Of a stretch of DNA of 64,000 bases, positions 1,185 to 56,684 are shown one piece after another. The notes beneath the pieces are model-generated. The model was given only the letters and a program-made list of their open reading frames with translations. It ran no database searches and was not told the DNA's origin. Made by a program: the position numbers and the translations under genes. Position 1 is the first letter of the stretch, and each line of letters begins with the position of its first letter. The DNA is from Gemmatimonadales bacterium (GTDB taxonomy: Bacteria > Gemmatimonadota > Gemmatimonadetes > Gemmatimonadales > GWC2-71-9): the NCBI GenBank assembly GCA_039934355.1, contig JBDTMI010000008.1, positions 3,012-67,011 on the forward strand, given 5' to 3'.

Positions 1185-1289
1185 CAGAGGGAAAATAGCC
1201 CCGTCGGAGGGACCTTCCCAGAGGGGACGATGACGTTCCCAGAGGGGAAAATGGCGTTTCCAGAGGGGAAAATGGCATTTTCCCTCTTG
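1185..1289. repeat. CAGAGGG(G)A motif array: one upstream copy, three tandem 21-bp units (1215-1235, 1236-1256, 1257-1277) and one inverted copy
   Basis: Read directly. The three units are ttcccagaggggacgatgacg, ttcccagaggggaaaatggcg and tttccagaggggaaaatggca, followed by the inverted attttccctcttg. The array lies in the divergent region between the dehydrogenase start (1163) and the SWIB start (1382). Confidence 0.8.
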
Positions 1290-1894: not shown

Positions 1895-3570
<1,676 letters not shown>

Positions 3571-3571
<1 letters not shown>

Positions 3572-3675
3572 CTGACAGCGTTCAGCCCTGGGTCAATAGT
3601 TCCCGCCCCCCGCGCTTCACTGGAGCCCTCGGCTGAACGCGCACCGCTGAACGCTGAATGCTGAATGCTCAGCGG
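3571..3675. repeat. Heptanucleotide repeat cluster (GCTGAAY family)
   Basis: gctgaca gcgttca gccctgg begins at the ettA stop codon. The core gctgaac gctgaat gctgaat gctcagc lies at 3647-3674. Confidence 0.8.
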
Positions 3676-3737
3676 CTTATTCCCTCCCTCCCCGGCCCGT
3701 GGTACCTTCCCGAAGCGAAACCCTCTACCGCCTGTCC

Positions 3738-5888
3738 ATGACTCAGCCGCGTACCCGCATCCCGTACCTGCCCCCGCGAATCGAAGGCCTTGCCGCGCTC
3801 GCTACAAACCTCTGGTGGAGCTGGTCCCTCGAGGCCCGGCATCTCTTCCGGCGGATCGATGAACCGCTCTGGCACCTGACCAAGCACAATCCCCTCGAGC
3901 TGCTGCGCCGGGTCGATCCCGCGCGCCTCGCCGATTGCGCCGCGGACCCCGGGTTCCTGTCGCTCTACGACCGGGTCATGGATACGGCGCACCGCGCCCT
4001 GACGACACCGAACACCTGGTTCCAGGGCCGCCATCCTGACCTGACCCGACCGGTGGCGTACTTCTGCGCCGAGTTCGGGCTGCACAATTCGGTGCCGATC
4101 TATTCCGGCGGGCTCGGCATCCTCGCGGGCGATCATTGCAAGGCCGCCTCGGATCTCGGGGTCCCGCTCGTCGGCGTGGGCCTGTTCTACACCAAGGGCT
4201 ATTTCGACCAGCGTCTCCGTCTCGATGGCTGGCAGGAAGACAGCGACGTCAAGTTTGATCTGGAGACCATTCCCCTGGAGCGGATCCCCGGCGCAAACGG
4301 GGATCCCTGGCTCACCACGGTGGACACCTTTGGCCGACCGGTCCATGTCGCCGCATGGCGCCTGCTGGTCGGCCGGGTGCCGGTCTACCTGCTCGACACC
4401 AACCTCCCGCAAAACGACCCCGCCGATCGCGATCTCTCGGCCAAGCTCTACGCCGGGGGGCCGGACATGCGCCTGCGGCAGGAGTGGCTGCTCGGTGTGG
4501 GCGGGGTGCGAGTCCTGCGAGCGCTCGGCATCGAACCTGCCGCCTGGCACGCCAACGAAGGGCATGCGGCCTTCATGCTGGTCGAGCGGCTGCGGGAACT
4601 GCTGGTCGCGGGATTGAGCTACCCGGAGGCCGTCGCGCAGGTGCGCGCCAGCAGCGTCTTCACCACCCATACACCGGTGCCGGCGGGACATGATCGCTTC
4701 AGCATCGATCAGGTGCTGGCGTGCGCCACCCCGGCCTGGGAGGAGATGGGCCTGACGCCGGAGCAGTTTGTCGCGCTCGGAGGGCATCCGGAAGATGCCC
4801 ACCCCCTCTTCCACATGACCGCCACGGCGATTCGTCTCTCGGGCCGGGTCAACGGCGTCGCCCGCAAGCACGGCGAGGTCTCCCGCGAGCTCTGGCAGCC
4901 GCTGTGGCCACAGCTGCGCGCCGAGCAGGTGCCGATCGGCCACATCACCAACGGTGTGCACCTGCCGACCTGGATGTCGAGCCGCATGATCCGGGTCCTC
5001 GACCGCCACCTCGGCGAAGGCTGGATGGACCGGCGGGACCAGCCCGGCTTCTGGGAGGGCGTGCTGACACTGGACGACGCGCTGCTCTGGCGCGAGCATC
5101 AGGAGTGCAAGCGAGGACTGCTGAATTACATCCGGGAGGAGGCCCGCCGGCGCTGGGCTGACCGGTGGAAGGAAGCCGCCCATGTCGTCGGGGCCGGCAC
5201 GCTGATCAGTCCCGATGCGCTGGTGATCGGCTTCGCGCGGCGTTTCGCGACGTACAAGCGCGCGTCGATCCTGTTCAGCGACTTTGACCGGCTGCACGAC
5301 CTGCTCACCAATGCGTGGCGCCCGGTGCAGCTCATTTTCGCGGGGAAGGCCCATCCGGAGGACGGACCCGGCAAGGAAGTCCTGCAGCAGGTCTACACCT
5401 TCACTCGGGATCCTCGCCTCGAGGGCCGGGTGGCCTTCATCGAGGACTACGAGATGCACCTCGCCCATCGTCTGGTACAGGGCGTCGACATCTGGATGAA
5501 CGTCCCGCGGGTGCCGCTGGAGGCCTGTGGCACCAGCGGAATGAAGGCGGGGTTGAATGCGGTCCCGCAACTCAGCACGCTCGATGGGTGGTGGGCCGAG
5601 GGGTATAGTGGACGCAACGGCTGGGCGATACCACCGGTCCAGCCCGGCGAGGATGCCGATACCGCCGACGCCGACCGGCTCTTCAGTCTCCTGGAGGATC
5701 AGGTGGTGCCGATGTACTACACTCGCGACGCGCGTGGGCTTCCGGTGGAATGGCTGCAGCGCATGAAACAGGCGCTCAAAGTCACCGGCGAGCACTTCGA
5801 TGCCCGACGCATGGTGCACGACTACGTCAGCGACTATTACGCACCTGCGATGCGCGGTGATGCGCCTGACACCCCTTCCCCGGTCTGA
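3738..5888 (+). CDS. glgP: Alpha-glucan (glycogen/maltodextrin) phosphorylase, GT35, DUF3417-type
   Basis: The N-terminal LATNLWWSWS motif and the PLP-lysine region CGTSGMKAGLN are present. The length fits the archaeal/bacterial short GT35 clade. The start is taken at MTQPRT. Confidence 0.9.
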   Translation: MTQPRTRIPYLPPRIEGLAALATNLWWSWSLEARHLFRRIDEPLWHLTKHNPLELLRRVDPARLADCAADPGFLSLYDRVMDTAHRALTTPNTWFQGRHPDLTRPVAYFCAEFGLHNSVPIYSGGLGILAGDHCKAASDLGVPLVGVGLFYTKGYFDQRLRLDGWQEDSDVKFDLETIPLERIPGANGDPWLTTVDTFGRPVHVAAWRLLVGRVPVYLLDTNLPQNDPADRDLSAKLYAGGPDMRLRQEWLLGVGGVRVLRALGIEPAAWHANEGHAAFMLVERLRELLVAGLSYPEAVAQVRASSVFTTHTPVPAGHDRFSIDQVLACATPAWEEMGLTPEQFVALGGHPEDAHPLFHMTATAIRLSGRVNGVARKHGEVSRELWQPLWPQLRAEQVPIGHITNGVHLPTWMSSRMIRVLDRHLGEGWMDRRDQPGFWEGVLTLDDALLWREHQECKRGLLNYIREEARRRWADRWKEAAHVVGAGTLISPDALVIGFARRFATYKRASILFSDFDRLHDLLTNAWRPVQLIFAGKAHPEDGPGKEVLQQVYTFTRDPRLEGRVAFIEDYEMHLAHRLVQGVDIWMNVPRVPLEACGTSGMKAGLNAVPQLSTLDGWWAEGYSGRNGWAIPPVQPGEDADTADADRLFSLLEDQVVPMYYTRDARGLPVEWLQRMKQALKVTGEHFDARRMVHDYVSDYYAPAMRGDAPDTPSPV

Positions 5889-7405: not shown

Positions 7406-9118
7406 ATGGATTTCATTCTCGCCCTGCACAGCCACCTGCCCTGGGTCCTGAACCACGGACGCTGGCCCCATGGCAGCGACTGGCTCACCGAGGCGGCGAT
7501 CGACACCTATCTCCCGCTGCTCCTCACCCTGGAGCAGCTGGAGCGCGACGGGGTGCCCGCCCCGGTGACACTCGGCATCACGCCAGTGCTGGCCAATCAG
7601 CTGTGCAGCCCCGACTTCAACGACGAACTCGAGGCGTACTTCACCCAGCGCCTCGAAGCCTGCGACACCGCTCCCGCCTCGCTGCGCACCACCGGCGATG
7701 CGCACCTCACGCCGCTGGTCGATCACTGGCGGACCCACCTGCTGGCCCTGCGGGCCCGATTCCGCGAGGCGGATGGCGATCTCACCCGCCCGTTCCGCCG
7801 GCTGGAAGAGGCGGGCCGGCTGGAACTCATCTCCTGCGGCGCCACCCACGGCTTCCTGCCGCTGCTCGCGCGCGACGAGAGCATTCAGCTGCAGCTCCGT
7901 CTAGGGCGGAGCGAGCATCGTCGCATTTTCGGCAAGGACCCCGTCGGCCTCTGGCTGCCCGAGTGCGCCTACCGCCCCGCCGGACCGTGGGCCCCGCTCC
8001 CCGAGGCCCCGGCGAGCCCGATGCGGCGCGGGATCGAGGATCACGTCGCGGAGGCGGGCTTTCGATATTTCTTCGTCGACAGCCACCTCGCCGAAGCCGG
8101 GGCGGCCTTCAAGCTCTACGGCGCTGATTGGGGGGAATGGCGCGCCGGGGGTGCCGGGGACACCCGCCATCCTGAGCCCACACCTCCCCGGACCATCGAG
8201 TCGCCGACGACCAACTCCCCGTATCAGGCGTATCGGGTCGCGAGCGGGGATGGATCGTCCCCCGTCGCGGCGTACATCCGTGATCCCCTGGCCTCGCGCC
8301 AGGTATGGAGTAAGCAGGAGGGGTATCCCGGCGACGAGTGGTATCTCGAGTTCCACAAGATCCGCTGGCCCGGTGGTCTCAAGTACTGGCGGGTGAGTGC
8401 GCCCGGCTCGGACCTCGGTGCCAAGCTCCCCTATGCTCCCCAGCAGGCCCGGGAGCGGGCGGCCGATCATGCCCGGCACTTCGCCGGCCTGCTGCATCGG
8501 ATCGCGGCGTCGCCCAACCGTCGACCCGCCGAGGATGTGGTCGCCGTCCCGTTCGATACCGAGCTCTTCGGCCATTGGTGGCATGAGGGGGTCGACTTCC
8601 TTGGCGAGGTCTTCCGCGCGCTGCAGCACCAGTCGACGATCGCGCCCAGTACCGGCGGCGCCCACCTGCGGCTGGCGCCGCCGACGCGGGGCGTTCACCT
8701 CGCGAGCGGAACGTGGGGCGCCAATGGCGACGCGAGCATGTGGCTGAACGCGGAGACGGCGTGGACCTGGCCGCGGCTGTGGAAGATCGAGGAATCGTTC
8801 TGGCGGGTCGCGCCGGCCGCGCTGGCCTCGACAGCCCACCACCTGGTGCTGGCACAGGCCGCACGCGAGATGCTGCTCGCCATGTCGTCCGACTGGCAGT
8901 TCATCATCACGACCGGCGCGGTCACCGACTATGCGGTGAAGCGTTTCACCGAGCATTGCACCGACGCCGAATTCCTCATCTCCGCGCTCCAGTCAGGCGC
9001 GACCAATCTCGCGGCGGCCCAGTCGCAGGCGGCGGAGATGTGGCGGCGGGATCATCTCTTCCCCAACGTGCTGGAAACGGTGGCGGAAGTGGTGGGAGGG
9101 GTGGCCGTTAGCCGTTAG
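7406..9118 (+). CDS. GH57-family 1,4-alpha-glucan branching enzyme-like protein
   Basis: MDFILALHSHLPWV is GH57 region 1 of the branching-enzyme type. The length and C-terminal helical domain match Thermus/Thermococcus-type GH57 branching enzymes. GAGGGGGAG lies upstream of the ATG. Confidence 0.8.
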   Translation: MDFILALHSHLPWVLNHGRWPHGSDWLTEAAIDTYLPLLLTLEQLERDGVPAPVTLGITPVLANQLCSPDFNDELEAYFTQRLEACDTAPASLRTTGDAHLTPLVDHWRTHLLALRARFREADGDLTRPFRRLEEAGRLELISCGATHGFLPLLARDESIQLQLRLGRSEHRRIFGKDPVGLWLPECAYRPAGPWAPLPEAPASPMRRGIEDHVAEAGFRYFFVDSHLAEAGAAFKLYGADWGEWRAGGAGDTRHPEPTPPRTIESPTTNSPYQAYRVASGDGSSPVAAYIRDPLASRQVWSKQEGYPGDEWYLEFHKIRWPGGLKYWRVSAPGSDLGAKLPYAPQQARERAADHARHFAGLLHRIAASPNRRPAEDVVAVPFDTELFGHWWHEGVDFLGEVFRALQHQSTIAPSTGGAHLRLAPPTRGVHLASGTWGANGDASMWLNAETAWTWPRLWKIEESFWRVAPAALASTAHHLVLAQAAREMLLAMSSDWQFIITTGAVTDYAVKRFTEHCTDAEFLISALQSGATNLAAAQSQAAEMWRRDHLFPNVLETVAEVVGGVAVSR

Positions 9119-9142
9119 CCGTTAGCCGTTGGCCGTTGGCCG
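9104..9142. repeat. Heptanucleotide tandem repeat (GCCGTTR, 5.5 units)
   Basis: The array reads gccgtta x3, gccgttg x2, gccg. It overlaps the last codons and the TAG stop (9116-9118) of the GH57 gene. Confidence 0.9.
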
Positions 9143-9316
9143 AGAAATAGTGCTGTCATCCTGAGGCCCGAAGGGCCGAAGGATCTCTTGCGATCGGAAC
9201 AGGAGCCGGGAATGTGCTCCGAGGCGAGGACTTCCTTCGCTGCACCCAGGACAAATGTTCGCGGCGGCAATTCCCCTCACTCCGCACTCCCTACTCCCAA
9301 CCGTCCCCTCAACTCC

Positions 9317-11394: not shown

Positions 11395-12156
11395 TCAGCT
11401 ATGGCGGTACGTCCGCGCGGCGGCAATGAAGGCACGGAACAGATGCCGGGTGTGCGGATCGGTCATCTCGAACATCTCGGGATGCCACTGCACTCCGACC
11501 ATGAAGTGATCGGCGTCCCGCTCGACGGCCTCCACCAGTCCGTCCGGGGCGACCGCGGCGGGGACCAGCTCCGAGGCGAGTTGCTTGATGCCCTGATGGT
11601 GCATGCTGTTGACCAGGATGTTCGGCTTCTCCATCACGGCCAGCAGGCGGCTCCCCTTGGCGAGGGCGACCTCGTGAGCCAGGTGATCCCGGTCGAAGCC
11701 GGCGGTGGGGAAGTAGTCATGCTTGATGGAGTCGGGGACCTGCGCGGCAATGTCCTGATACAACGTGCCGCCGAACGCGACGTTCAAGACCTGGATGCCA
11801 CGGCAGAGCCCGAGCACCGGCTTGCGGTCTTCGATGGCCCAGCGGGTGAGCTGCAGCTCCACCCGGTCCCGGGCCGGGTCAAGCGCGCCCAGCTTGGGGT
11901 GGCGCTCCTCGCCGAAGGTGGCGGGGTCCATGTCCACGCCCCCGGGGATGAGGATGCCATCCAGCCGGTCGTAGATCTCGCGCAACGTATCTTCGTCGTC
12001 GTCGAGCAACGGAATCATCCACGGCACCCCACCCACGATCGTGGCCGCGAGGAAATACCGCTGATTCATCACCCAGGATTCCGGGAGCGCGGCCGGAATT
12101 CCGTCGATGGCGTGCAGCGTCTGGGTTGTGACCCCGATTACGGGACGTGGCAGCAT
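11395..12156 (-). CDS. Class I glutamine amidotransferase-like / peptidase C26 gamma-glutamyl hydrolase (PuuD-like)
   Basis: GLCRGIQVLNVAFGG carries the nucleophile Cys, with MHHQGI and VQWHPE (His/Glu) also present. The start is taken at MLPRPVIGV. Confidence 0.85.
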   Translation of the reverse strand: MLPRPVIGVTTQTLHAIDGIPAALPESWVMNQRYFLAATIVGGVPWMIPLLDDDEDTLREIYDRLDGILIPGGVDMDPATFGEERHPKLGALDPARDRVELQLTRWAIEDRKPVLGLCRGIQVLNVAFGGTLYQDIAAQVPDSIKHDYFPTAGFDRDHLAHEVALAKGSRLLAVMEKPNILVNSMHHQGIKQLASELVPAAVAPDGLVEAVERDADHFMVGVQWHPEMFEMTDPHTRHLFRAFIAAARTYRHS

Positions 12157-13366: not shown

Positions 13367-13397
13367 TGCTTCTCCTCGAGCTGGGATCCGATAGCGC

Positions 13398-13461
13398 GTT
13401 CAGCGTTGAGCATTCAGCGGTACGCGGCTGAACGCCGAACGCTGAATGCTGAACGCTGACC
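13398..13461. repeat. Inverted heptamer arrays (3 GTTCAGC-type units facing 5 GCTGAAC-type units)
   Basis: The sequence reads gttcagc gttgagc attcagc ggtacgc g gctgaac gccgaac gctgaat gctgaac gctgacc. The arms are mutually complementary. Confidence 0.85.
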
Positions 13462-13463
13462 AC

Positions 13464-14819
13464 TCACTCGCGTTCCTCGACCACAAAACAAGGCACCGTA
13501 CTCCCCCCGCCGGCCGTCACGTTCAGCAGGGCGGCGGTGGACAGTCGCGTGAGGCAGCCATCCACCGCCGAGCCATTGAGGACGAAGGGTGCGGTATCGA
13601 ACATCCGGTCGATGAAGTGGACCGCGCCCTCGGACCAGGTGGGATAGGCTTCGCTCGGAACCGCGACGCGGGCCTGCACGATATGCGGTGTGGTGAGGGC
13701 GTGCGCGAGCGCCGCGGCCCACCCGGCATCATCCACCGTCCAGCCGAGGATCACCCCGGCGCCGCCGTAATCATCGTTGGGCTTGAGGACCAGCCGCTCG
13801 CGGTTGGCGGCGATGAACGGAACCAGGTCCACCCGCTCGCCGGCGCATTCCGTCTTCCGCTCCTCCACCACCCGGGTCCACGGAAGGAACTCGGCGATCG
13901 CCTCCCGCTCGCGCGGCGAGAAGAGGGTCGTATTCCGTTCGTCGGAGAGCACGGCGAGACTGGCCTTCTTGTGCAGCAGCTTGCAGCGAAAGGGATTTAC
14001 CATGCAGACCGCCCGATCCCGCACGGCCCGCACCATGGGATGCTCCAGCCCTTCCCGCTCCACCAGTTCGTTGATCAGCACCCGCTTGTAGATCAGGTCG
14101 ATCTCGCCACCGGGACCACGAAGCCGGCCACCGTGGTATTCGAGCTCGCGCGGATCGACGATGACAGTGGGACAGCCGATTGATTCGAAGTACGCCTTGA
14201 AAATCTCGAACTCCACGTACGTCGGCACGTCGTTCCAGTCGACAATGGCGATGCGGGGCCGCTCCCAGCGGCCGGAGAACTCTCGCCAGGCGTCCAGAAT
14301 GATCGTTGCCACGCCCGGCCGGGCCGGCAGCGGCATCACCCGGTAGCGCTGGCGAAAGGCGCGCATGACCGGCAGCACCGCGAACGCCTCGGTCAGCAGA
14401 TCGTTGAAGCCGGCCCCAGCGGGCGTCTCGGCGTTGTACTCCGTGAGCGCGAGCGTGTCGGTGGCGTCGACCGTGAAACAGTCGAGCCGTCCATGCGGGC
14501 TCGGGCTGGCATACCCGGGATCGGCCAGCATGAGCTGTTCTTCCCAGTCGGTGAGACGGAACTGTGCCCGCAGCGCCGCATCGATCATGGCGGCGTGGTG
14601 GGCCCGCCCGAACGCCGACATCAGGCGCCCGATGCGTCCCTCCATGCGGGAGAGCCACGAGGCGGTGACAAAGCGGGGCCGGAGCACGGTGCACAGCGGC
14701 CGATCACCGAAGACCAGCGTCCGCCGCCGCAGCTCCTCCTCGAGCATGACGTGCGAGGCTTCGGCCAGCTCCGACTGTCCGAGCAGCTCGTGGTAGAGTG
14801 CGATGGGTCCGGCGCTCAC
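13464..14819 (-). CDS. ATP-grasp-fold amidoligase, glutathionylspermidine-synthase-like or circularly permuted ATP-grasp type
   Basis: LALTEYNAETPAGAGF resembles the E-x-N-x-(D/E)-T-P motif of GSP-synthase / CP-ATP-grasp families. The start is set at the GTG at 14819, which overlaps the upstream stop (GTGA). The longer ORF to 15176 overlaps the next gene. Confidence 0.65.
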   Translation of the reverse strand: MSAGPIALYHELLGQSELAEASHVMLEEELRRRTLVFGDRPLCTVLRPRFVTASWLSRMEGRIGRLMSAFGRAHHAAMIDAALRAQFRLTDWEEQLMLADPGYASPSPHGRLDCFTVDATDTLALTEYNAETPAGAGFNDLLTEAFAVLPVMRAFRQRYRVMPLPARPGVATIILDAWREFSGRWERPRIAIVDWNDVPTYVEFEIFKAYFESIGCPTVIVDPRELEYHGGRLRGPGGEIDLIYKRVLINELVEREGLEHPMVRAVRDRAVCMVNPFRCKLLHKKASLAVLSDERNTTLFSPREREAIAEFLPWTRVVEERKTECAGERVDLVPFIAANRERLVLKPNDDYGGAGVILGWTVDDAGWAAALAHALTTPHIVQARVAVPSEAYPTWSEGAVHFIDRMFDTAPFVLNGSAVDGCLTRLSTAALLNVTAGGGSTVPCFVVEERE

Positions 14820-15748: not shown

Positions 15749-15773
15749 GGGTGCAGGTCCAGTGTGTGAATTC

Positions 15774-15878
15774 GTTGAGCGTTCAGCATTCAGCGGTAAG
15801 CATTCAGCAACCACAGTCGTCGACCGCCGCGCCAGGTTCAGTCCGAAACCGCTGAAGGCTGAATGCTGACCGCTGGCC
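15774..15878. repeat. Inverted heptamer arrays separated by about 40 nt
   Basis: The left arm is gttgagc gttcagc attcagc ggtaagc attcagc (15774-15808). The right arm is gctgaag gctgaat gctgacc gctggcc (15851-15878). Confidence 0.85.
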
Positions 15879-15883
15879 CCCGC

Positions 15884-16603
15884 TCATCCAGGTCCGCCCA
15901 GGTACATCCGCGCCATCTTCTCCCAGTACGGCCAGTCGTGCGCCGAACCGTCCCAGGGACGCAGCGCGTTGCCGATGCTCTTGCTCCAGAGCAGCTCGGA
16001 GAAGTCGACATTGTTCTGGTACATCGGATCGTCCCGGCCGATCACGAAGATCAGGTCCTGCCGCCGGAACGCGGCGAGGCGGCCAGGATGGTGCTCGTGC
16101 ACCATGAAGTCCATCGGATTCACCGGGTACACATTTTCATCCGAGAAGCCGTCGGTCATCCGCTTGAGGTCGTACATCCCGCTCATGCCGAGCACCCGAT
16201 TGACCTGTTCGGGAAAGAGCAGCCCGAACGTGGCGGCATGCGTGGCCCCCAGACTGGCGCCCGTCGCAATGACATACGGATTCGGGTTCTGCCACGCGGA
16301 GTACGGCAGGACTTCCTCGCGGATGTAGCGGAAATACTGCCGGTGCACCCACCCGCGGTGACTGGGATGGGTCCGGGTGTTCCCCCAGTTTTCTTCGTGC
16401 GGCTGGTCCAGGCAATAGAGCTGGATCCAGCCATTGTCGAGGTGATCCTGCAGCACCTCGTGCATCCGCCGGTCAGGCCATTCGGAATGGGTGCCCATGC
16501 TGGTGGGAAAGACCAGCACCCGGGCGCCGGCGTGCCCGATCACCTGCAAGGTCATCGACCGGTCGAGCGCCGGGCTGCGCCAGGAGTGGGTTTCGTGATG
16601 CAT
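15884..16603 (-). CDS. Esterase-family alpha/beta hydrolase (esterase D / putative esterase type)
   Basis: 239 aa with the nucleophile elbow GASLGATHA and a C-terminal HDWPYW region. Confidence 0.75.
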   Translation of the reverse strand: MHHETHSWRSPALDRSMTLQVIGHAGARVLVFPTSMGTHSEWPDRRMHEVLQDHLDNGWIQLYCLDQPHEENWGNTRTHPSHRGWVHRQYFRYIREEVLPYSAWQNPNPYVIATGASLGATHAATFGLLFPEQVNRVLGMSGMYDLKRMTDGFSDENVYPVNPMDFMVHEHHPGRLAAFRRQDLIFVIGRDDPMYQNNVDFSELLWSKSIGNALRPWDGSAHDWPYWEKMARMYLGGPG

Positions 16604-16640
16604 GGGGTGGCGGGGAGCAGGTGGCAGGTAGTCACACGCC

Positions 16641-16668
16641 GACGGCTGACGGCTGACGACTCACGCCT
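16641..16668. repeat. Heptanucleotide repeat (GACGGCT family, the reverse-complement phase of GCCGTCA)
   Basis: The array reads gacggct gacggct gacgact cacgcct. Confidence 0.8.
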
Positions 16669-16842
16669 GCCAGCCCCTTGTTGGGGGGACAATCTACCCC
16701 GATCCGCGAATTCCTCCATGCCCCCCCCGAGAGGCGGGTCACGGCTCGGCGGCACCCGCCCGGATACAAGCAACCCCGGTGGGTCGCGGCCAACCGGGGT
16801 AGGGCTCGACTCTTGACGTCTGCGTGCTGAGGACGCCGCCGG

Positions 16843-19963: not shown

Positions 19964-20019
19964 GCCAATGGCGAACGGCCAATGGCCATTGGGTGACGGC
20001 TGATGGCTGATCGCCCTAC
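19964..20019. repeat. Heptanucleotide repeat in GC-phase (8 units)
   Basis: The array reads gccaatg gcgaacg gccaatg gccattg ggtgacg gctgatg gctgatc gccctac. It lies between convergent genes and reaches the stop codon at 20016-20018. Confidence 0.8.
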
Positions 20020-21545: not shown

Positions 21546-21723
21546 GCCGACCGATCGTGAAGGTTGGCTCCACAGTACCTGAGCAGCGGTCGGTGCGACG
21601 TGAGATCAGCGTGAAGAGGGCTTCAGGAGGGAGCCAGGAGGCGGCTGACAGCTGGCAGGTGGAAGACAATCGCGGGATCCCCAGCGCCTACTCCCCGCTC
21701 CAGTTGCCACCCGCCACCTGCGT

Positions 21724-23694: not shown

Positions 23695-23807
23695 AGGCCG
23701 GGGAGGAGGGAAAGAGGAAAAGGGAAAGTGGAGTGCTCCGCGGACAATCTACTGCGTGCTACCGAGAGCGTCAGGGGACGTTTCAGGCCGAACGCGAGGG
23801 GCGCGGA

Positions 23808-23842
23808 GCCGTCAGCCGTCAGCGTGCAGCGGATAGCCGCTC
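23808..23842. repeat. Heptanucleotide repeat (GCCGTCA family)
   Basis: The array reads gccgtca gccgtca gcgtgca gcggata gccgctc, in a divergent promoter region. Confidence 0.75.
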
Positions 23843-23903
23843 ACCTAGCCGCCCAACCCCCCCCCGCCCTTTCCCCATTCCCCCTTCCCCGTATTTTCCC
23901 TCC

Positions 23904-24795: not shown

Positions 24796-24848
24796 GAGTC
24801 AGAAGTGAGGAGTAAAGAGGAAAAGTCGTTCCTCCTCACTCCTGACTC
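24796..24848 (+). terminator. 17-bp-arm hairpin between aguB and aguA
   Basis: gagtcagaagtgaggag pairs with ctcctcactcctgactc with one mismatch. The arms themselves have a 7-nt period (gagtcag aagtgag gagtaaa gaggaaa). Confidence 0.5.
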
Positions 24849-24869
24849 CGTACCCCACCCCCCAGCTCA

Positions 24870-32932: not shown

Positions 32933-32960
32933 GCTGAACGCTGAATGCTGAACGCCGAAC
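32933..32960. repeat. Heptanucleotide repeat (GCTGAAY family, 4 units)
   Basis: The array reads gctgaac gctgaat gctgaac gccgaac. Confidence 0.85.
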
Positions 32961-32970
32961 GCTTCCTGCC

Positions 32971-36309: not shown

Positions 36310-36404
36310 GAACTCCTCGGTGCGGAGATGGGGCGGAGAGAGAATGTAGGGATTCCGGACCGAAAATGGTGATTTCTGGCCCGAACTTGACAATTATGTC
36401 GAAA

Positions 36405-36420
36405 ATGTAAACGTTTACAT
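36405..36420. promoter_or_regulatory. LacI-family operator 1: perfect 16-bp palindrome ATGTAAACGTTTACAT
   Basis: Read directly. The palindrome has a central CG and matches the TGnAAnCGnTTnCA-type LacI/GalR operator consensus. It lies between the divergent AP-family and lacI-family genes. Confidence 0.7.
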
Positions 36421-36467
36421 ACCGCCACAGGCCGTGTCGGCTCCCGCTGGACTGTTGTGGACCGAAA

Positions 36468-36483
36468 ATGTAAACGTTTACAT
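36468..36483. promoter_or_regulatory. LacI-family operator 2: identical 16-bp palindrome
   Basis: This is an exact second copy. The shared stretch is the 20-nt gaaaatgtaaacgtttacat. The two centres are 63 bp apart. Confidence 0.7.
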
Positions 36484-36595
36484 GCCGACAGAGCCTCGTC
36501 GGCCCCCACTCGAGTACCCACAGTATCCCTGGCGGAATCGGCATTCCGTCCCGGGCGCACCTCGGAGCACCGAGGGCGGGCGCCTCTCAGCTGCC

Positions 36596-37609
36596 ATGAT
36601 GATCACGATCAAGGACGTCGCCCGTCAGGCCGGGGTCTCCGTCGCTACCGTCTCTCGGGTCTTCAACGACATCGATAACGTCCGCCCGCACACCCGCGAG
36701 CGGGTGCAGGCCGTCGCCCTGGAGCTCGGCTACAGCCCGCATGGAACCGCCCGCAGCCTGATCACAAGCCGGACCCACACTCTGGGCATGCTGTTGCCGG
36801 ACCTCTATGGCGAATTCTTCTCCGAAGTCATCCGCGGGGTGGACCAGGCGGCCCAACGGGAGGGCTTTCACCTGCTGATCTCCAGCGCGCGCGCCGAAGG
36901 TCCCTCCCTGGAAGCGGCCCTGCGTTCCATGCGCGGCCGGGTGGACGGACTCATCGTGATGTCGCCCGATCTCGATGCCCTCGCTTCGCGCCGCAGCCTG
37001 CCCCATGGCTTCCCGGTCGTCTTGCTCAACTGTCCGCCCAGCGACGCCGGCCATGACAGCATCGGCATCGCCAACTACGAAGGCGCGCTCGCCATGACTC
37101 GGCACCTGGCGGGTCAGGGGCACACCCGGATTGCGATGATCAAGGGCGCGGAGGGGAATTTCGACGCGGCGGAGCGGTTGCGCGGGTACCGCGCGGTGGT
37201 GCGGGAGCGCAACCTCGATGCCCACCCCACCCTGGAGCTCGCCGGTGATTTCAGTGAAGACGGGGGACACGCCGCGGCCCTGCGCCTCCTCGCCCTGCAT
37301 CCCCGCCCGACCGCTGTCTTTGCCGCCAATGACGGCATGGCCGTCGGCGCGCTCAGCGCCTTCCGCGAGGCCGGCCTCCGGGTGCCCCAGGATATCGCCC
37401 TCGGCGGCTTTGACGACATCCCGCTGGCCCGATACGTAGAGCCGGCCCTGACCAGTGTCCACGTCCCCATCAATGTGCTCGGTGAACACGCCACCGGCTG
37501 CCTGTTCGCACGCCTGCGTGCGGTCGAGCCCATGGAGTCCCGTCGCGAAGTGCTGGCCACGACACTCGTCGTGCGGCGCTCCTGCGGCGCGCAGGGTGGA
37601 CCGGGCTGA
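36596..37609 (+). CDS. LacI-family transcriptional regulator
   Basis: The HTH is MITIKDVARQAGVSVATVSRVFN, followed by a periplasmic-binding-protein-like sugar-binding core. Confidence 0.9.
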   Translation: MMITIKDVARQAGVSVATVSRVFNDIDNVRPHTRERVQAVALELGYSPHGTARSLITSRTHTLGMLLPDLYGEFFSEVIRGVDQAAQREGFHLLISSARAEGPSLEAALRSMRGRVDGLIVMSPDLDALASRRSLPHGFPVVLLNCPPSDAGHDSIGIANYEGALAMTRHLAGQGHTRIAMIKGAEGNFDAAERLRGYRAVVRERNLDAHPTLELAGDFSEDGGHAAALRLLALHPRPTAVFAANDGMAVGALSAFREAGLRVPQDIALGGFDDIPLARYVEPALTSVHVPINVLGEHATGCLFARLRAVEPMESRREVLATTLVVRRSCGAQGGPG

Positions 37610-51300: not shown

Positions 51301-52195
51301 GCGGTATCGCGATTATCTCCGCCAGCTCCACGTGGCCCTGAATGACGGCGGCTGGGACGGCGGCTGGTATCGCCGCGGCTACTACGACAACGGCACCCCC
51401 CTCGGCTCGGCGAAGAGCGACGAGTGCCGGATCGACGCCATCGCGCAGGCCTGGGCGGTGCTCTCCGGGGTGGCGCCAGCGGAGCGTGCGACCCAGGCGC
51501 TGGACGCGCTGGAGCAGCACCTGGTCTCGGAGTCCGATGGGATCATCCGGCTGCTGACCCCGCCCTTCGACCAGACGCCTGAGGATCCGGGCTACATCAA
51601 GGGCTACCTCCCCGGCGTGCGGGAAAACGGCGGGCAATACACTCATGGCGCGCTCTGGGCCGTGCAGGCGCTGGCCGAAGCGGGTCGGGGCGACCGCGCC
51701 GCCGCATTGCTCACCATGCTCTCGCCCGTCACCCACGGCGCGACACCCGCCGCCGCGGATCGATACCAGGTGGAACCGTATGTCATCGCGGCGGATGTCT
51801 ACGGCGTGGCACCGCATGTCGGACGGGGCGGCTGGACCTGGTACACCGGCTCGGCGGGGTGGATGTTCCGCGTCGCGGTGGAATCGGTGCTGGGGATCGC
51901 CCTTGAGGGAGGGAACTTCATCGTGGTACGACCAGCCTTGCCACTCGCGTGGCCCGGCTACTCCTTTACCTCCCGGCTGCCCGATGGCAGGACGACGCTC
52001 ACGCTGACGGTGGAACGCGCGGCGGCCACAGACCAGTCAGCGACCAATGGTACGCTGGACGGCCAGGCGCTCGCCGTTGTCGATGGCGCGGTCCGCATCC
52101 CACTTCCCGATGACGGCGCAACCCACACCGCGGCAATTCGTTTTGGCGCAGGCGCACGTGTTACCTATCACCAGCGACCAGCCGCTGAATGCTGA
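48365..52195 (+). CDS. GH94-family glycoside phosphorylase, 1,2-beta-oligoglucan phosphorylase / cyclic-glucan-synthase C-terminal-like
   Basis: [33 protein letters not shown] is repeated at [11 protein letters not shown]...EAFYLRDE. The catalytic-domain motifs [30 protein letters not shown] and [11 protein letters not shown] are present. The GTG start overlaps the upstream TGA. Confidence 0.8.
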
Positions 52196-52225
52196 ACGCT
52201 CAATGCTGAACGCTGAACGCTGACT
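52184..52225. repeat. Heptanucleotide repeat (GCTGAAY family, 6 units)
   Basis: The array reads gctgaat gctgaac gctcaat gctgaac gctgaac gctgact. It contains the GH94 stop codon (52193-52195). Confidence 0.9.
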
Positions 52226-52235
52226 GGAGTCCCCA

Positions 52236-56511: not shown

Positions 56512-56547
56512 CGGAGCGATTCGGACGGGGTGAGCGGGGAAGTTAAA

Positions 56548-56631
56548 GCCGTCAGCCGTCAGCCGTCAGCCATTGGGAAGAGGCCGTTGGCGGTTGCCCA
56601 TTAGCCGTTGGCCGTTGGCCGTTGGCCGCTT
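56548..56631. repeat. Heptanucleotide repeat, 12 units in a single register (GCCGTCA/GCCGTTG family)
   Basis: The array reads gccgtca x3, gccattg, ggaagag, gccgttg, gcggttg, cccatta, gccgttg x3, gccgctt. It lies in the divergent Rrf2/ALDH intergenic region. Confidence 0.9.
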
Positions 56632-56684
56632 CATATTCCCAGCCACTTGTCCGCTGTCACCGGCCACCTGCCACCTGATTCCTC

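What the first reader, a model, noticed from the sequence alone, without database searches (positions are those of the whole stretch)
56548..56631. Family of phase-locked heptanucleotide tandem repeats in intergenic DNA (largest array shown)
At least 11 loci in 64 kb carry tandem 7-nt units that keep GC at unit positions 1-2. The families are GCTGAAY (3571-3675, 13427-13461, 15851-15878, 32933-32960, 52184-52225), its reverse complement GTTCAGC/ATTCAGC (13398-13418, 15774-15808), GCCGTYR (9104-9142, 23808-23842, 56548-56631), its complement phase GACGGCT (16641-16668), and GCCAATG/GCTGATG (19964-20019).

The array at 56548-56631 holds 12 units in one unbroken register. Every array lies between genes or just touches a stop codon, and I saw none inside a conserved coding region.

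They are too short and lack the spacers needed for CRISPR, and they differ from classical palindromic REP elements. The 7-nt period, family diversity and strict intergenic placement suggest a genome-wide element class with a role in termination, mRNA processing or protein binding, or a slippage-prone simple-sequence class. I do not know whether it has been formally described.
Basis: seen in the sequence. Interest (0 to 1): 0.66.

Follow-up and report, generated by a model that had tools for sequence, protein, structure and literature searches.

The report
Intergenic 7-base tandem repeats, Gemmatimonadales
The 7-base tandem repeats are real, confined to the DNA between genes and specific to one Gemmatimonadales lineage, but they belong to a kind of bacterial repeat already described in other phyla, and their function is still unknown.

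Summary
Period 7 is the only amplified period in the window: 9 strong runs against 0.23 expected. All 9 lie in the 7.6% of the window that is non-coding. Five independent assemblies reproduce the arrays exactly.

The window comes from a Gemmatimonadales bacterium. Relatives about 11% diverged in DNA carry arrays in the same spacers. Sister lineages have none in 72 kb. Two distant Gemmatimonadales loci have arrays built from unrelated units.

All units in the clade form one family around GCCGTCA; GCTGAAC is the same family read on the other strand. Copy number differs between genomes (3 versus about 11 units). About 38% of arrays have an inverted partner nearby, and such pairs fold into long hairpins whose two arms change together. 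Many arrays start 0-8 nt after a stop codon or contain it.

This matches the intergenic heptanucleotide repeats described in Xanthomonas, Nostoc/Calothrix and Beggiatoaceae. I found no report for this phylum.

The most likely origin is replication slippage in 7-nt steps, with template switching keeping hairpin arms matched. Any function is secondary. Three things stay unexplained: why the period is 7, why sister lineages lack arrays, and why hairpin loci within one genome share a unit.

The parts
56547..56631 (+). Main array: (GCCGTCA)3, two degenerate units, then (GCCGTTG)n. Twelve units in one register, in the divergent spacer between an Rrf2 regulator gene and an aldehyde dehydrogenase gene.
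   Evidence: The composite is conserved upstream of the aldehyde dehydrogenase gene at 91% protein identity, with different copy numbers, and also where Rrf2 is absent. It is not structured: fold z = -0.3.
56654..56677 (+). (CTGCCAC)3.4 array, 7 nt upstream of the aldehyde dehydrogenase start codon. It is the third block of the same composite.
   Evidence: It has 3-7 units in L225, L226 and L227. The same family sits ahead of the esterase gene start (16618-16631) and in L211 and L212.
3577..3669 (+). One GCGTTCAGCC unit (3577-3586) and a (GCTGAAY)5.4 array (3632-3669). Together they form a hairpin between the ABC-F gene and the glucan phosphorylase gene.
   Evidence: Fold -45.6 kcal/mol, z = -3.05. 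The orthologous spacer in L211 has (CTGACGG)3 plus an inverted GCCATCAGC unit.
9104..9142 (+). (GCCGTTA)4(GCCGTTG)1.6 array that contains the TAG stop codon of the GH57 branching-enzyme gene.
   Evidence: The orthologous array in L212 shares the first unit, GCCGTTA, and then reads (GCCGTCA)3. Sister lineages L218 and L221 have 21-39 nt spacers without arrays.
13398..13461 (-). Inverted pair of GTTCAGC-type and GCTGAAY-type arrays. They fill the spacer from the stop codon of the 451-aa gene to about 30 nt before the GCS2 start (IG-A).
   Evidence: Fold -46.3 kcal/mol, z = -6.2. Orthologous inverted pairs with other units occur in L207, L208, L209, L211 and L212; there is none in L218.
15774..15878 (-). 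Inverted pair of TTCAGC-type and GCTGAA-type arrays with a loop of about 40 nt, between the esterase-like gene and a 310-aa gene (IG-B).
   Evidence: Fold -55.8 kcal/mol, z = -4.1. Orthologous pairs are built from GCCGTTG (L207, L211) or GCCGTCA-type units (L212).
16618..16669 (+). (CAGGTGG)2 followed by (GACGGCT)4.1. On the gene strand this reads (CAGCCGT)n then (CTGCCAC)n, upstream of the esterase-like gene (IG-C).
   Evidence: The CAGCCGT array has 3 units here, 3.5 in L211 and about 11 in L212. L207 has (CTGCCAG)4 instead.
19964..20019 (+). Weak composite of (GCCAATG)3 joined to GCCATTG/GCTGATG units, between convergent genes and abutting the stop codon of the ATP-grasp gene.
   Evidence: Fold z = -2.7. 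It is absent from the orthologous spacer of L212.
23807..23890 (+). (AGCCGTC)2.4 with degenerate continuation, plus (CCCATTC)3.4, in a divergent spacer.
   Evidence: The orthologous spacer in L211 has 7 GCCRTCN units and (GGGGAAC)7. Sister lineage L221 has none.
32933..32963 (+). (GCTGAAY)4.4 array between the stop codon of the GS-III gene (minus strand) and a bidirectional intrinsic terminator.
   Evidence: At the same position L002 has an inverted pair of GAGTCNN arrays. L001 and L004 have only plain terminator hairpins.
52183..52223 (+). (GCTGAAY)5.9 array with a 14-nt higher-order period. It contains the TGA stop codon of the GH94 gene and ends 12 nt before the MalK-like gene start.
   Evidence: L225 has no array here, but has an extra GH1 gene at this junction.

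Best explanation
These are intergenic heptanucleotide simple-sequence repeats. The same kind of element is known as cyanobacterial STRR, Xanthomonas GGGAATC repeats and Beggiatoaceae/Microcystis TAACTGA repeats. Here it appears in a Gemmatimonadales lineage, as one unit family centred on GCCGTCA.

Proposed mechanism:
1. A short seed in a spacer grows and shrinks by slipped-strand mispairing in 7-nt steps. Internal units are continually homogenised, so arrays stay regular while the unit drifts by single substitutions.
2. Arrays spread until they meet a constraint. They run up to, or replace, the stop codon of the upstream gene, and they stop short of the ribosome-binding site of the next gene. 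Seven is not a multiple of three, so arrays inside genes are removed by selection.
3. Where an array sits next to a hairpin, intramolecular template switching (quasipalindrome correction) copies changes from one arm to the other. This yields long inverted pairs whose arms change together.
4. Homologous recombination between related genomes moves whole spacer alleles around.

The arrays are mostly tolerated by-products. Some hairpins between genes, and the arrays upstream of the aldehyde dehydrogenase gene, may have been co-opted to tune expression.

Shown: period specificity, non-coding placement, conservation of position with turnover of copy number and unit, relatedness of units, hairpin formation, matched arms, and lineage restriction. 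Inferred: slippage, template switching, and the largely non-adaptive status.
For: - Period 7 only: 9 runs against 0.23 expected, all non-coding. In relatives, 26 runs in 81 kb with other periods at 3 or fewer.
- Real sequence: five independent assemblies are identical to the window.
- Copy number varies at one locus: 3, 3.5 and about 11 units at IG-C; 2.4 versus 7 units at the 23808 spacer; different block sizes upstream of the aldehyde dehydrogenase gene.
- Homogenisation: at IG-E the edge unit GCCGTTA is shared, but internal units are GCCGTTA/G in the window and GCCGTCA in L212. Within-array identity is 80-100%, although third-position divergence between these genomes is about 30%.
- Units form a single-step network: 17 pairs within one mismatch against 3.7 expected, 0 of 300 simulations.
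- Arrays fill the available space: many start 0-8 nt from, or overlap, the upstream stop codon, and paired arrays leave 17-30 nt before the next start codon.
- Arms match: duplex energy of a genome's own arms is -52.9 against -41.9 kcal/mol for chimeric arms at IG-A, and -60.4 against -45.0 at IG-B.
- No sense/antisense asymmetry (p = 0.43), as expected for a DNA-level process.
- One arm is often longer than its partner, for example 3.4 versus 6.4 units around a core GGAGGG...CCCTCC hairpin in L004.
- Loops are locus-specific, so these are not copies of one mobile cassette.
- Allele shuffling: L207 and L208 differ by 0.7% in GCS2 yet carry the L212-like and L211-like IG-A alleles.
- Dispensable: sister lineages have none in 72 kb and do without them in the same spacers.
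- Precedent for the same behaviour in Xanthomonas: inverted pairs, same gene context, differing length, type preserved (PMC4692102).
Against: - Slippage alone does not explain why only period 7 is amplified. Periods 4, 5, 8, 10 and 11 are just as incompatible with coding.
- It does not explain how one unit family came to occupy many separate spacers. Singleton heptamers are not enriched in genes.
- It does not explain the all-or-nothing difference between lineages of similar divergence.
- Three hairpin loci (IG-A, IG-B, IG-F) switched together to GCTGAAY in the window lineage, while direct-only arrays kept GCCGTYR. This points to coupling between loci.
- Position and architecture are kept across about 30% synonymous divergence. 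Some array-free relatives have ordinary hairpins at the same spacers. Both fit a functional hairpin.
- No copy-number variation was seen among five assemblies of the same population.
Confidence: 0.55

Rival explanations
1. Functional RNA hairpins. The inverted pairs are selected intercistronic or 3' stem-loops that work like REP/BIME elements. They would protect upstream mRNA from 3' exonucleases, attenuate read-through or serve as RNase III sites. The direct arrays upstream of genes would be 5'-UTR or promoter spacers that tune expression. In this view heptamer slippage is only the way this lineage builds and resizes them.
For: - Hairpins are very stable: z = -6.2, -4.1 and -3.05; -72 and -97 kcal/mol in L004.
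- Every detected inverted pair in the clade lies between co-directional genes.
- The paired architecture is kept at IG-A and IG-B in all five clade lineages despite unit changes.
- A genome's own arms pair better than chimeric arms.
- Several array-free relatives have ordinary hairpins at the same spacers: L219 and L221 at IG-B, L224 at IG-A.
- The composite upstream of the aldehyde dehydrogenase gene is conserved at 91% protein identity, including a CATATTCC motif between blocks, even where the neighbouring gene differs.
- Four of 16 hairpins fold 7-15 kcal/mol better as sense RNA through G-U pairs.
Against: - There is no overall sense/antisense asymmetry (p = 0.43).
- No U-tracts follow the stems.
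- L218 and L221 have short spacers at IG-A with no hairpin.
- Only 3 independent paired loci exist in the clade, so the link to co-directional genes is not statistically secure.
- One arm is often much longer than needed.
- No transcript data are available.
Confidence: 0.2
2. A trans-acting, sequence-specific system. A lineage-specific factor would seed, recognise and homogenise the heptamer arrays genome-wide. Candidates are a REP-associated tyrosine transposase acting on REPIN-like hairpins, another nucleic-acid enzyme, or a DNA- or RNA-binding protein with a 7-nt register. The arrays would be its substrates or binding platforms.
For: - Gain is burst-like: at least 8 spacers shared by the clade, none in sister lineages of similar divergence.
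- A single unit family occupies all loci.
- Hairpin loci within one genome share a unit 'dialect'. The window uses GCTGAAY at IG-A, IG-B and IG-F, L212 uses GCCGTCA and L211 mostly GCCGTTG, while direct-only arrays keep the same unit in all genomes.
- Independent array-rich Gemmatimonadales loci have their own units.
- PMC4679880 notes that cold-shock proteins bind one heptamer per monomer.
Against: - None of the 41 window proteins is a transposase, RAYT or obvious candidate. The window is only a fraction of the genome.
- Loops are locus-specific, so these are not copies of a mobile cassette.
- Singleton heptamers are not enriched in genes.
- Array orientation relative to transcription is not consistent.
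- Arrays of arbitrary heptamers are common in environmental DNA.
- The dialect evidence rests on 3 loci in 4 genomes, and recombination complicates it.
Confidence: 0.15
3. Contingency (phase-variation) loci. The arrays would be selected mutational switches whose copy number flips expression of neighbouring genes within a population. The 7-bp repeats in the Haemophilus influenzae hmw promoters are the model.
For: - Arrays lie in promoter or 5' regions of some genes (56548 composite, 23807, 16641).
- Copy number differs between related genomes.
- Heptanucleotide SSR phase variation is documented in H. influenzae (PMC8262952, PMC12721329, listed).
Against: - Five assemblies from different read sets of the same population show no copy-number difference at any array they span.
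- Most arrays lie at 3' ends or between cistrons of housekeeping genes (glycogen metabolism, GS-III, sugar uptake), not next to surface or host-interaction genes.
Confidence: 0.05
4. Assembly or sequencing artefact, or a chance pattern.
For: Short-read contigs of the same organism tend to break just after arrays: L085 ends at window position 9152 and L086 at 13498.
Against: - Sequence is identical in five independent assemblies.
- Arrays are present at orthologous spacers in other species' assemblies from NCBI, JGI and ENA.
- There are 9 runs against 0.23 expected.
Confidence: 0.01

Closest known systems
Xanthomonas GGGAATC heptameric intergenic repeats (Rehm et al. 2015, PMC4692102)
   Same: - Tandem 7-nt units with one consensus family per genome, about 4 units typical, almost all intergenic.
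- A large fraction occur as convergent inverted pairs able to form stem-loops.
[quoted passage not shown]
   Different: - The units here are not G-rich and cannot form G-quadruplexes.
- The host phylum is different.
- The unit itself changes between related genomes, with both arms changing together.
- The arrays are absent from sister lineages.
Cyanobacterial STRR heptanucleotide repeats of Calothrix and Nostoc/Anabaena, and Nostoc GGGGAYT repeats (as cited in PMC4692102)
   Same: - Several heptamer families per genome.
- Tandem and intergenic, dispersed at many loci.
- Function unknown.
   Different: - Unrelated unit sequences and a low-GC host.
- Few inverted pairs were reported in Nostoc.
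TAACTGA direct repeats of marine Beggiatoaceae, Microcystis and some Bacteroidetes (MacGregor 2015, PMC4679880)
   Same: - A single heptamer amplified as short tandem sets in many spacers.
- Patchy phylogenetic distribution.
- Spacers that contain mixtures of heptamer arrays.
- Close relatives with shorter spacers and no repeats.
   Different: - TAACTGA sets lie mainly just upstream of start codons in one orientation, and only one indirect repeat was found.
- Here many arrays abut stop codons, and about 38% are in inverted pairs.
REP/BIME elements and REPINs of Proteobacteria
   Same: Works like:
- Hairpin-forming inverted pairs of 70-130 nt.
- They lie in 3' and intercistronic spacers at conserved positions.
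- Sequence variants are lineage-specific and distribution is patchy.
   Different: - The arms here are tandem heptamer arrays of variable length, not a fixed palindrome.
- No RAYT gene was seen in the window.
- Loops are locus-specific.
Heptanucleotide excess among long SSRs of prokaryotes (Mrazek, Guo and Shah 2007, as summarised in PMC4679880 and PMC4692102)
   Same: - Heptamers are the most abundant class of 5-11 nt SSRs.
- They are mostly non-coding and occur in free-living bacteria with large genomes.
- The proposed link is to polymerase slippage.
   Different: That survey predates Gemmatimonadota genomes, to my knowledge. It did not address hairpin pairs or unit evolution.

Membership tests
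Intergenic heptanucleotide SSR families (STRR / GGGAATC / TAACTGA type) | Head-to-tail tandem copies of a 7-nt unit, at least 3 copies | tested here: met
   TRF finds 13 arrays of at least 3 copies in the window. About 50 arrays occur in 145 kb of the clade.
Intergenic heptanucleotide SSR families (STRR / GGGAATC / TAACTGA type) | Excess of period 7 over chance and over other periods | tested here: met
   Nine runs against 0.23 in shuffles, with other periods at 0-1. In relatives, 26 runs against 3 or fewer at other periods. Unrelated high-GC DNA has 6 runs in 713 kb.
Intergenic heptanucleotide SSR families (STRR / GGGAATC / TAACTGA type) | Confined to non-coding DNA | tested here: met
   All 9 runs lie in the 7.6% of the window that is non-coding. 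The census shows zero coding overlap apart from array ends that contain stop codons.
Intergenic heptanucleotide SSR families (STRR / GGGAATC / TAACTGA type) | One or a few related units dispersed over many loci of a genome | tested here: met
   Twelve of 17 units form one single-step network around GCCGTCA. None of 300 random sets is as related.
Intergenic heptanucleotide SSR families (STRR / GGGAATC / TAACTGA type) | Same gene context in related genomes, with differing copy number | tested here: met
   Shown at IG-A, IG-B, IG-C, IG-E, IG-F, the 23808 spacer and the region upstream of the aldehyde dehydrogenase gene.
Cyanobacterial STRR proper | The specific STRR unit sequences in a cyanobacterial genome | tested here: not met
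   Units here are GCCGTCA-type. The nearest relatives are Gemmatimonadales MAGs. The STRR unit sequences themselves were recalled from memory, not checked.
G-quadruplex-forming heptamer repeats (Xanthomonas/Nostoc type) | A run of at least 3 G (or C) in every unit | tested here: not met
   GCCGTCA, GCCGTTG, GCTGAAC and CTGCCAC have no GGG or CCC run.
REP/BIME, REPIN | Fixed-length imperfect palindrome of conserved sequence, repeated as a unit | tested here: not met
   Arms are tandem arrays of variable unit number, and loops are locus-specific.
REP/BIME, REPIN | A cognate RAYT (Y1 transposase) gene in the genome | not testable with these tools
   None of the 41 window proteins has a Y1_Tnp hit. 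The rest of the genome could not be scanned.
Intrinsic (Rho-independent) terminator | GC-rich stem followed directly by a U-tract | tested here: not met
   The consensus scan does not flag the heptamer hairpins at 13385-13470, 15765-15885 or 3570-3680. Its one hit inside an array (56609-56628, tail CTTCATATTC) is a 6-bp stem within a direct array, and the scan total is near shuffle expectation. Reading the sequence shows no T-run after the stems. True terminators with T-runs exist elsewhere, for example next to the 32933 array.
CRISPR array | Repeats of 23-47 nt separated by unique spacers of similar size | tested here: not met
   Units are 7 nt and contiguous.
DNA uptake sequences (DUS/USS) | Strong genome-wide over-representation of the motif, including inside genes | tested here: not met
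   Fourteen heptamers, counted in 56.7 kb of coding sequence against codon-shuffled controls, give z from -1.6 to +2.0.
Phase-variable contingency SSR | Copy-number heterogeneity within a population | tested here: inconclusive
   Five assemblies of the same population are identical. Consensus assemblies hide minority variants, so this is not decisive.
Known RNA families (Rfam 15) | Match at gathering threshold | tested here: not met
   There are no matches anywhere in the window.

The most novel reading that the evidence does not exclude
The hairpin-forming heptamer arrays could be substrates of a lineage-specific trans-acting system. Candidates are a REPIN/RAYT-like mobilising enzyme or a protein that reads nucleic acid in 7-nt steps. 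Such a system would have seeded one unit family into many spacers in a burst on one branch of the Gemmatimonadales. It would keep hairpin loci within a genome on a common unit 'dialect': GCTGAAY in this genome, GCCGTCA or GCCGTTG in relatives. If so, the long-noted but unexplained excess of heptamer repeats in bacteria would have a dedicated molecular cause. That cause could be found by comparing array-rich genomes with their array-free sisters.
Probability: 0.15. Interest if true: 0.75.

Novelty: new member of a known kind. Interest (0 to 1): 0.42.

Why it matters
The excess of heptamer repeats in bacteria was noted in 2007 and is still unexplained.

This lineage offers a clean comparison. 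Array-rich genomes and array-free sisters are only slightly more diverged from each other than the array-rich genomes are among themselves. A whole-genome comparison could therefore find the determinant, whether a replication or repair property or a dedicated gene.

The data also show that arrays hold their position while the unit and copy number turn over, and that hairpin arms change in concert. Both bear on how bacterial intergenic hairpins originate.

There are practical points too:
- The arrays break short-read assemblies.
- They add variable array-encoded C-terminal tails to proteins.
- They could serve as strain-typing markers for Gemmatimonadales.

Tried and rejected
- **Rfam (gathering) on the whole window:** no match.
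- **Literature search for Gemmatimonas with tandem repeat and intergenic:** no papers.
- **RNA-level selection test:** sense and antisense folds of 16 hairpins show no asymmetry.
- **Uptake-signal idea:** the units resemble the Neisseria DUS (sequence recalled from memory). I rejected this because singletons are not enriched in genes.
- **GCTGAAY as a specially favoured unit:** (GCTGAAY)4 occurs in at least 120 metagenome contigs of 33-77% GC. Permuted control units are about as frequent in viral contigs: 13 and 25 stretches against 21. The wide spread therefore reflects the general abundance of heptamer arrays.
- **Stop codon required in the unit:** rejected. Several units (GCCGTTG, GGTCGAT, GAGAACG) have none on either strand, by direct reading of the units.
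- **Mobile cassette or MITE:** loops between arms are locus-specific, and array flanks share nothing beyond degenerate units.
- **Consistent orientation relative to transcription:** none found.
- **Inverted pairs restricted to co-directional spacers:** true for every pair detected. It rests on only 3 independent loci, so it is not claimed as significant.
- **Sigma-70 promoter scan around the main array:** no hit. A role for the conserved CATATTCC as a -10 element remains a guess.
- **Copy-number polymorphism within the source population:** none seen.
Full report
**1. The observation**

The sequence at 56548-56631 reads as twelve 7-nt units in one register: GCCGTCA x3, GCCATTG, GGAAGAG, GCCGTTG, GCGGTTG, CCCATTA, GCCGTTG x3, GCCGCTT. 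The span given as 3571-3675 is too wide. It holds one inverted unit at 3577-3586 and an array at 3632-3669.

A lag-p self-match test gives 9 strong runs at period 7, against 0.23 +/- 0.5 in dinucleotide-preserving shuffles. Periods 2-13 and 15 give 0-1 runs, and period 14 is the harmonic. A codon-usage gene model finds 41 genes covering 92.4% of the window. All 9 runs lie in the remaining 7.6%. Two arrays contain the stop codon of the upstream gene (9104-9142 and 52183-52223).

Contigs assembled from five different read sets are 100% identical to the window through the arrays they span. The arrays are therefore not assembly artefacts, and there is no visible copy-number variation in that population.

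**2. The organism and the lineage pattern**

The genes are ordinary chromosomal genes. They include a glycogen cluster with three GH57 paralogues, GS-III, two-component signalling, a LacI-regulated sugar operon, an Rrf2 regulator, an aldehyde dehydrogenase and RND efflux. The nearest relatives are Gemmatimonadales MAGs.

Among 80 loci fetched with the GS-III gene, only the two long Gemmatimonadales loci are rich in period-7 arrays, and their units are unrelated to the window's.

A graded series of GCS2 and aldehyde dehydrogenase orthologues sharpened this picture.
- **Array-rich clade.** These genomes are about 11% diverged in nucleotides and about 30% at third codon positions. They have 26 period-7 runs in 81 kb.
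- **Sister lineages.** Third-position divergence is 0.35-0.44 where it was measured (L221, L218). The five sister loci have none in 72 kb.
- **Distant Gemmatimonadales (L002, L004).** They have 10 runs in 44 kb.
- **Unrelated high-GC DNA.** It has 6 runs in 713 kb, and multiples of three dominate there.

**3. How the arrays evolve**

Almost every array-bearing spacer of the window also has arrays in clade relatives, and none in the sisters. Copy number differs. The CAGCCGT array has 3 units in the window, 3.5 in L211 and about 11 in L212. The 23808 spacer has 2.4 units in the window and 7 in L211.

At the spacer after the GH57 branching-enzyme gene, the first unit (GCCGTTA) is shared. The internal units are GCCGTTA/G in the window and GCCGTCA in L212. 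This is the pattern expected from homogenisation inside an array.

The composite around the reported coordinates is (GCCGTCA)n, (GCCGTTG)n, CATATTCC, (CTGCCAC)n, ATG. It is kept upstream of the aldehyde dehydrogenase gene at 91% protein identity, even where the Rrf2 neighbour is missing, with different block sizes.

The units are related to each other. Seventeen unit pairs differ by at most one base, against 3.7 +/- 2.0 for random heptamers of the same composition (0 of 300 simulations). Twelve of the 17 units form one single-step network centred on GCCGTCA. GCTGAAC joins this network when read on the other strand as GCGTTCA.

**4. Hairpins**

About 38% of roughly 50 arrays in 145 kb have an inverted partner within 220 nt. 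All of these lie between co-directional genes, but they represent only three independent loci. They fold strongly: -46.3 kcal/mol with z = -6.2, -55.8 with z = -4.1, and -45.6 with z = -3.05. The large direct array at 56548 is unstructured, with z = -0.3.

At the spacers before GCS2 and after the esterase-like gene, every clade genome has an inverted pair. The unit differs between genomes: GTTCAGC-type in the window, GCCGTCA-type in L207 and L212, and GCCGTTG-type in L208, L209 and L211. Both arms change together. A genome's own arms pair better than chimeric combinations: -52.9 against -41.9 kcal/mol, and -60.4 against -45.0.

L207 and L208 differ by only 0.7% in GCS2, yet they carry the L212-like and L211-like alleles. 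Recombination therefore moves whole spacer alleles between genomes.

The distant locus L004 shows the same design with unrelated units. Arms start 0-12 nt after the upstream gene, and stems reach -72 to -97 kcal/mol. One pair flanks an ordinary GGAGGG...CCCTCC core hairpin, with arms of unequal length.

Sense and antisense strands fold equally well (n = 16, mean difference -1.7 kcal/mol, p = 0.43). The stems are not followed by U-tracts.

**5. Placement**

Many arrays begin 0-8 nt after the upstream stop codon or contain it. Paired arrays leave 17-30 nt before the next start codon. The CTGCCAC arrays end 1-13 nt before a start codon. Arrays occur in tandem, convergent and divergent spacers, with no consistent orientation relative to transcription.

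**6. Explanations**

The pattern fits intergenic heptanucleotide simple-sequence repeats that grow and shrink by 7-nt slippage. Internal units are homogenised, and arrays are confined to free non-coding space. Arms can be kept complementary by intramolecular template switching, which is the established quasipalindrome-correction mechanism and needs no selection. The lack of strand asymmetry agrees with this. I give this reading 0.55.

A primary role as REP-like RNA hairpins gets 0.2. It is supported by the conserved position and architecture, and by ordinary hairpins at the same spacers in some array-free relatives. It is not supported by the strand test or by any terminator features.

A trans-acting system gets 0.15. 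It would explain the burst-like gain, the single unit family, and the shared unit at hairpin loci within one genome. No candidate gene is in the window.

Phase variation (0.05) and artefact (0.01) are unlikely.

An uptake-signal role is rejected because singleton heptamers are not enriched in genes. GCTGAAY is also not a privileged unit. It occurs in at least 120 metagenome contigs of 33-77% GC, but permuted control units are about as common in viral contigs.

**7. What is known**

Two papers summarise the 2007 finding that heptamers are the commonest 5-11 nt SSRs in many bacteria, with a proposed link to polymerase slippage. They describe specific families: TAACTGA in Beggiatoaceae, Microcystis and Bacteroidetes (PMC4679880), and GGGAATC in Xanthomonas and GGGGAYT in Nostoc (PMC4692102).

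The Xanthomonas study reports 70-75 inverted pairs and arrays between the same genes in two species. Lengths differ there, and the single or paired type is preserved. Its units are G-rich and were interpreted as G-quadruplexes, which cannot apply here. Neither paper mentions Gemmatimonadota, and a direct literature search found nothing.

**8. Verdict**

This is a real and statistically strong feature, and a new member of a known kind. Three things are new:
- the phylum and the unit family;
- the clean presence/absence contrast between sister lineages;
- concerted change of the unit in both arms of a hairpin, and across hairpin loci within a genome.

Why the period is 7, and how one unit reaches many spacers, remain open.

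Noticed in passing
window 9150-9195; L212 15317-15530 (reverse strand); L002 12190-12215; L003 2470-2540: A REP-like element, GTCATCCTGAGGCCCGAAGGGCCGAAGGATCTC, lies next to the 9104 array and is conserved in L212. Related GTCACCCTGAGCGAAGCGAAGGGG copies, one as a long palindrome, occur in other Gemmatimonadales loci. This looks like a second, unrelated dispersed repeat family.
   Followed up: partly
window 1211-1274: Three direct copies of a 21-nt unit, GACGTTCCCAGAGGGGAAAAT, lie in the divergent spacer between a glucose/sorbosone-dehydrogenase-like gene and a small SWIB-domain gene. They may be an operator or iteron-like site.
   Followed up: no
window 36395-36420 and 36465-36485: Two copies of the perfect palindrome ATGTAAACGTTTACAT, each preceded by CCGAAAATG, lie upstream of a LacI-family regulator gene (36596-37609). 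That gene heads an operon encoding a TonB-dependent receptor, glucoamylase, ABC sugar transporter, GH94 and MalK. The palindromes are probably the LacI operators.
   Followed up: no
L225 11489-11871: A 380-nt spacer downstream of the aldehyde dehydrogenase gene is made almost entirely of short tandem arrays. It includes a period-8 array, (GGGCGATT) of about 12 units at 11508-11600, the only strong non-7 array seen in the clade. In the window the same junction is 12 nt long.
   Followed up: partly
L002 4962-5144: Two same-orientation (GGTAAAC)n arrays flank a tRNA-Ser(CGA) gene (5002-5088, minus strand). The window itself has no tRNA gene.
   Followed up: yes
window 52183-52235 versus L225 5018-6419: The GCTGAAY array between the GH94 gene and the MalK-like gene sits exactly where the relative L225 has an extra GH1 gene on the opposite strand. 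The array may mark a gene gain or loss junction.
   Followed up: no
window 9104-9118; L212 15465-15530: The C-terminal residues and stop codon of the GH57 branching-enzyme gene are encoded by the array, so the protein has an array-derived tail. The tail differs between genomes: the protein is 572 aa here and was called as 583 aa in L212.
   Followed up: partly
window 9152 and 13498 (ends of Logan contigs L085 and L086): Short-read contigs of the same organism end within about 10-40 nt after heptamer arrays. The arrays appear to fragment de Bruijn assemblies of these genomes.
   Followed up: no
window 24797-24860 and 21635-21722: Two further hairpins have weak 7-nt periodicity in their arms: GAGTCAG/GAGTGAG against CTCACTC/CTGACTC, and GCTGGCA/GGTGGAA against TGCCACC/CGCCACC. 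The first resembles the GAGTCNN unit family of the distant locus L002.
   Followed up: partly
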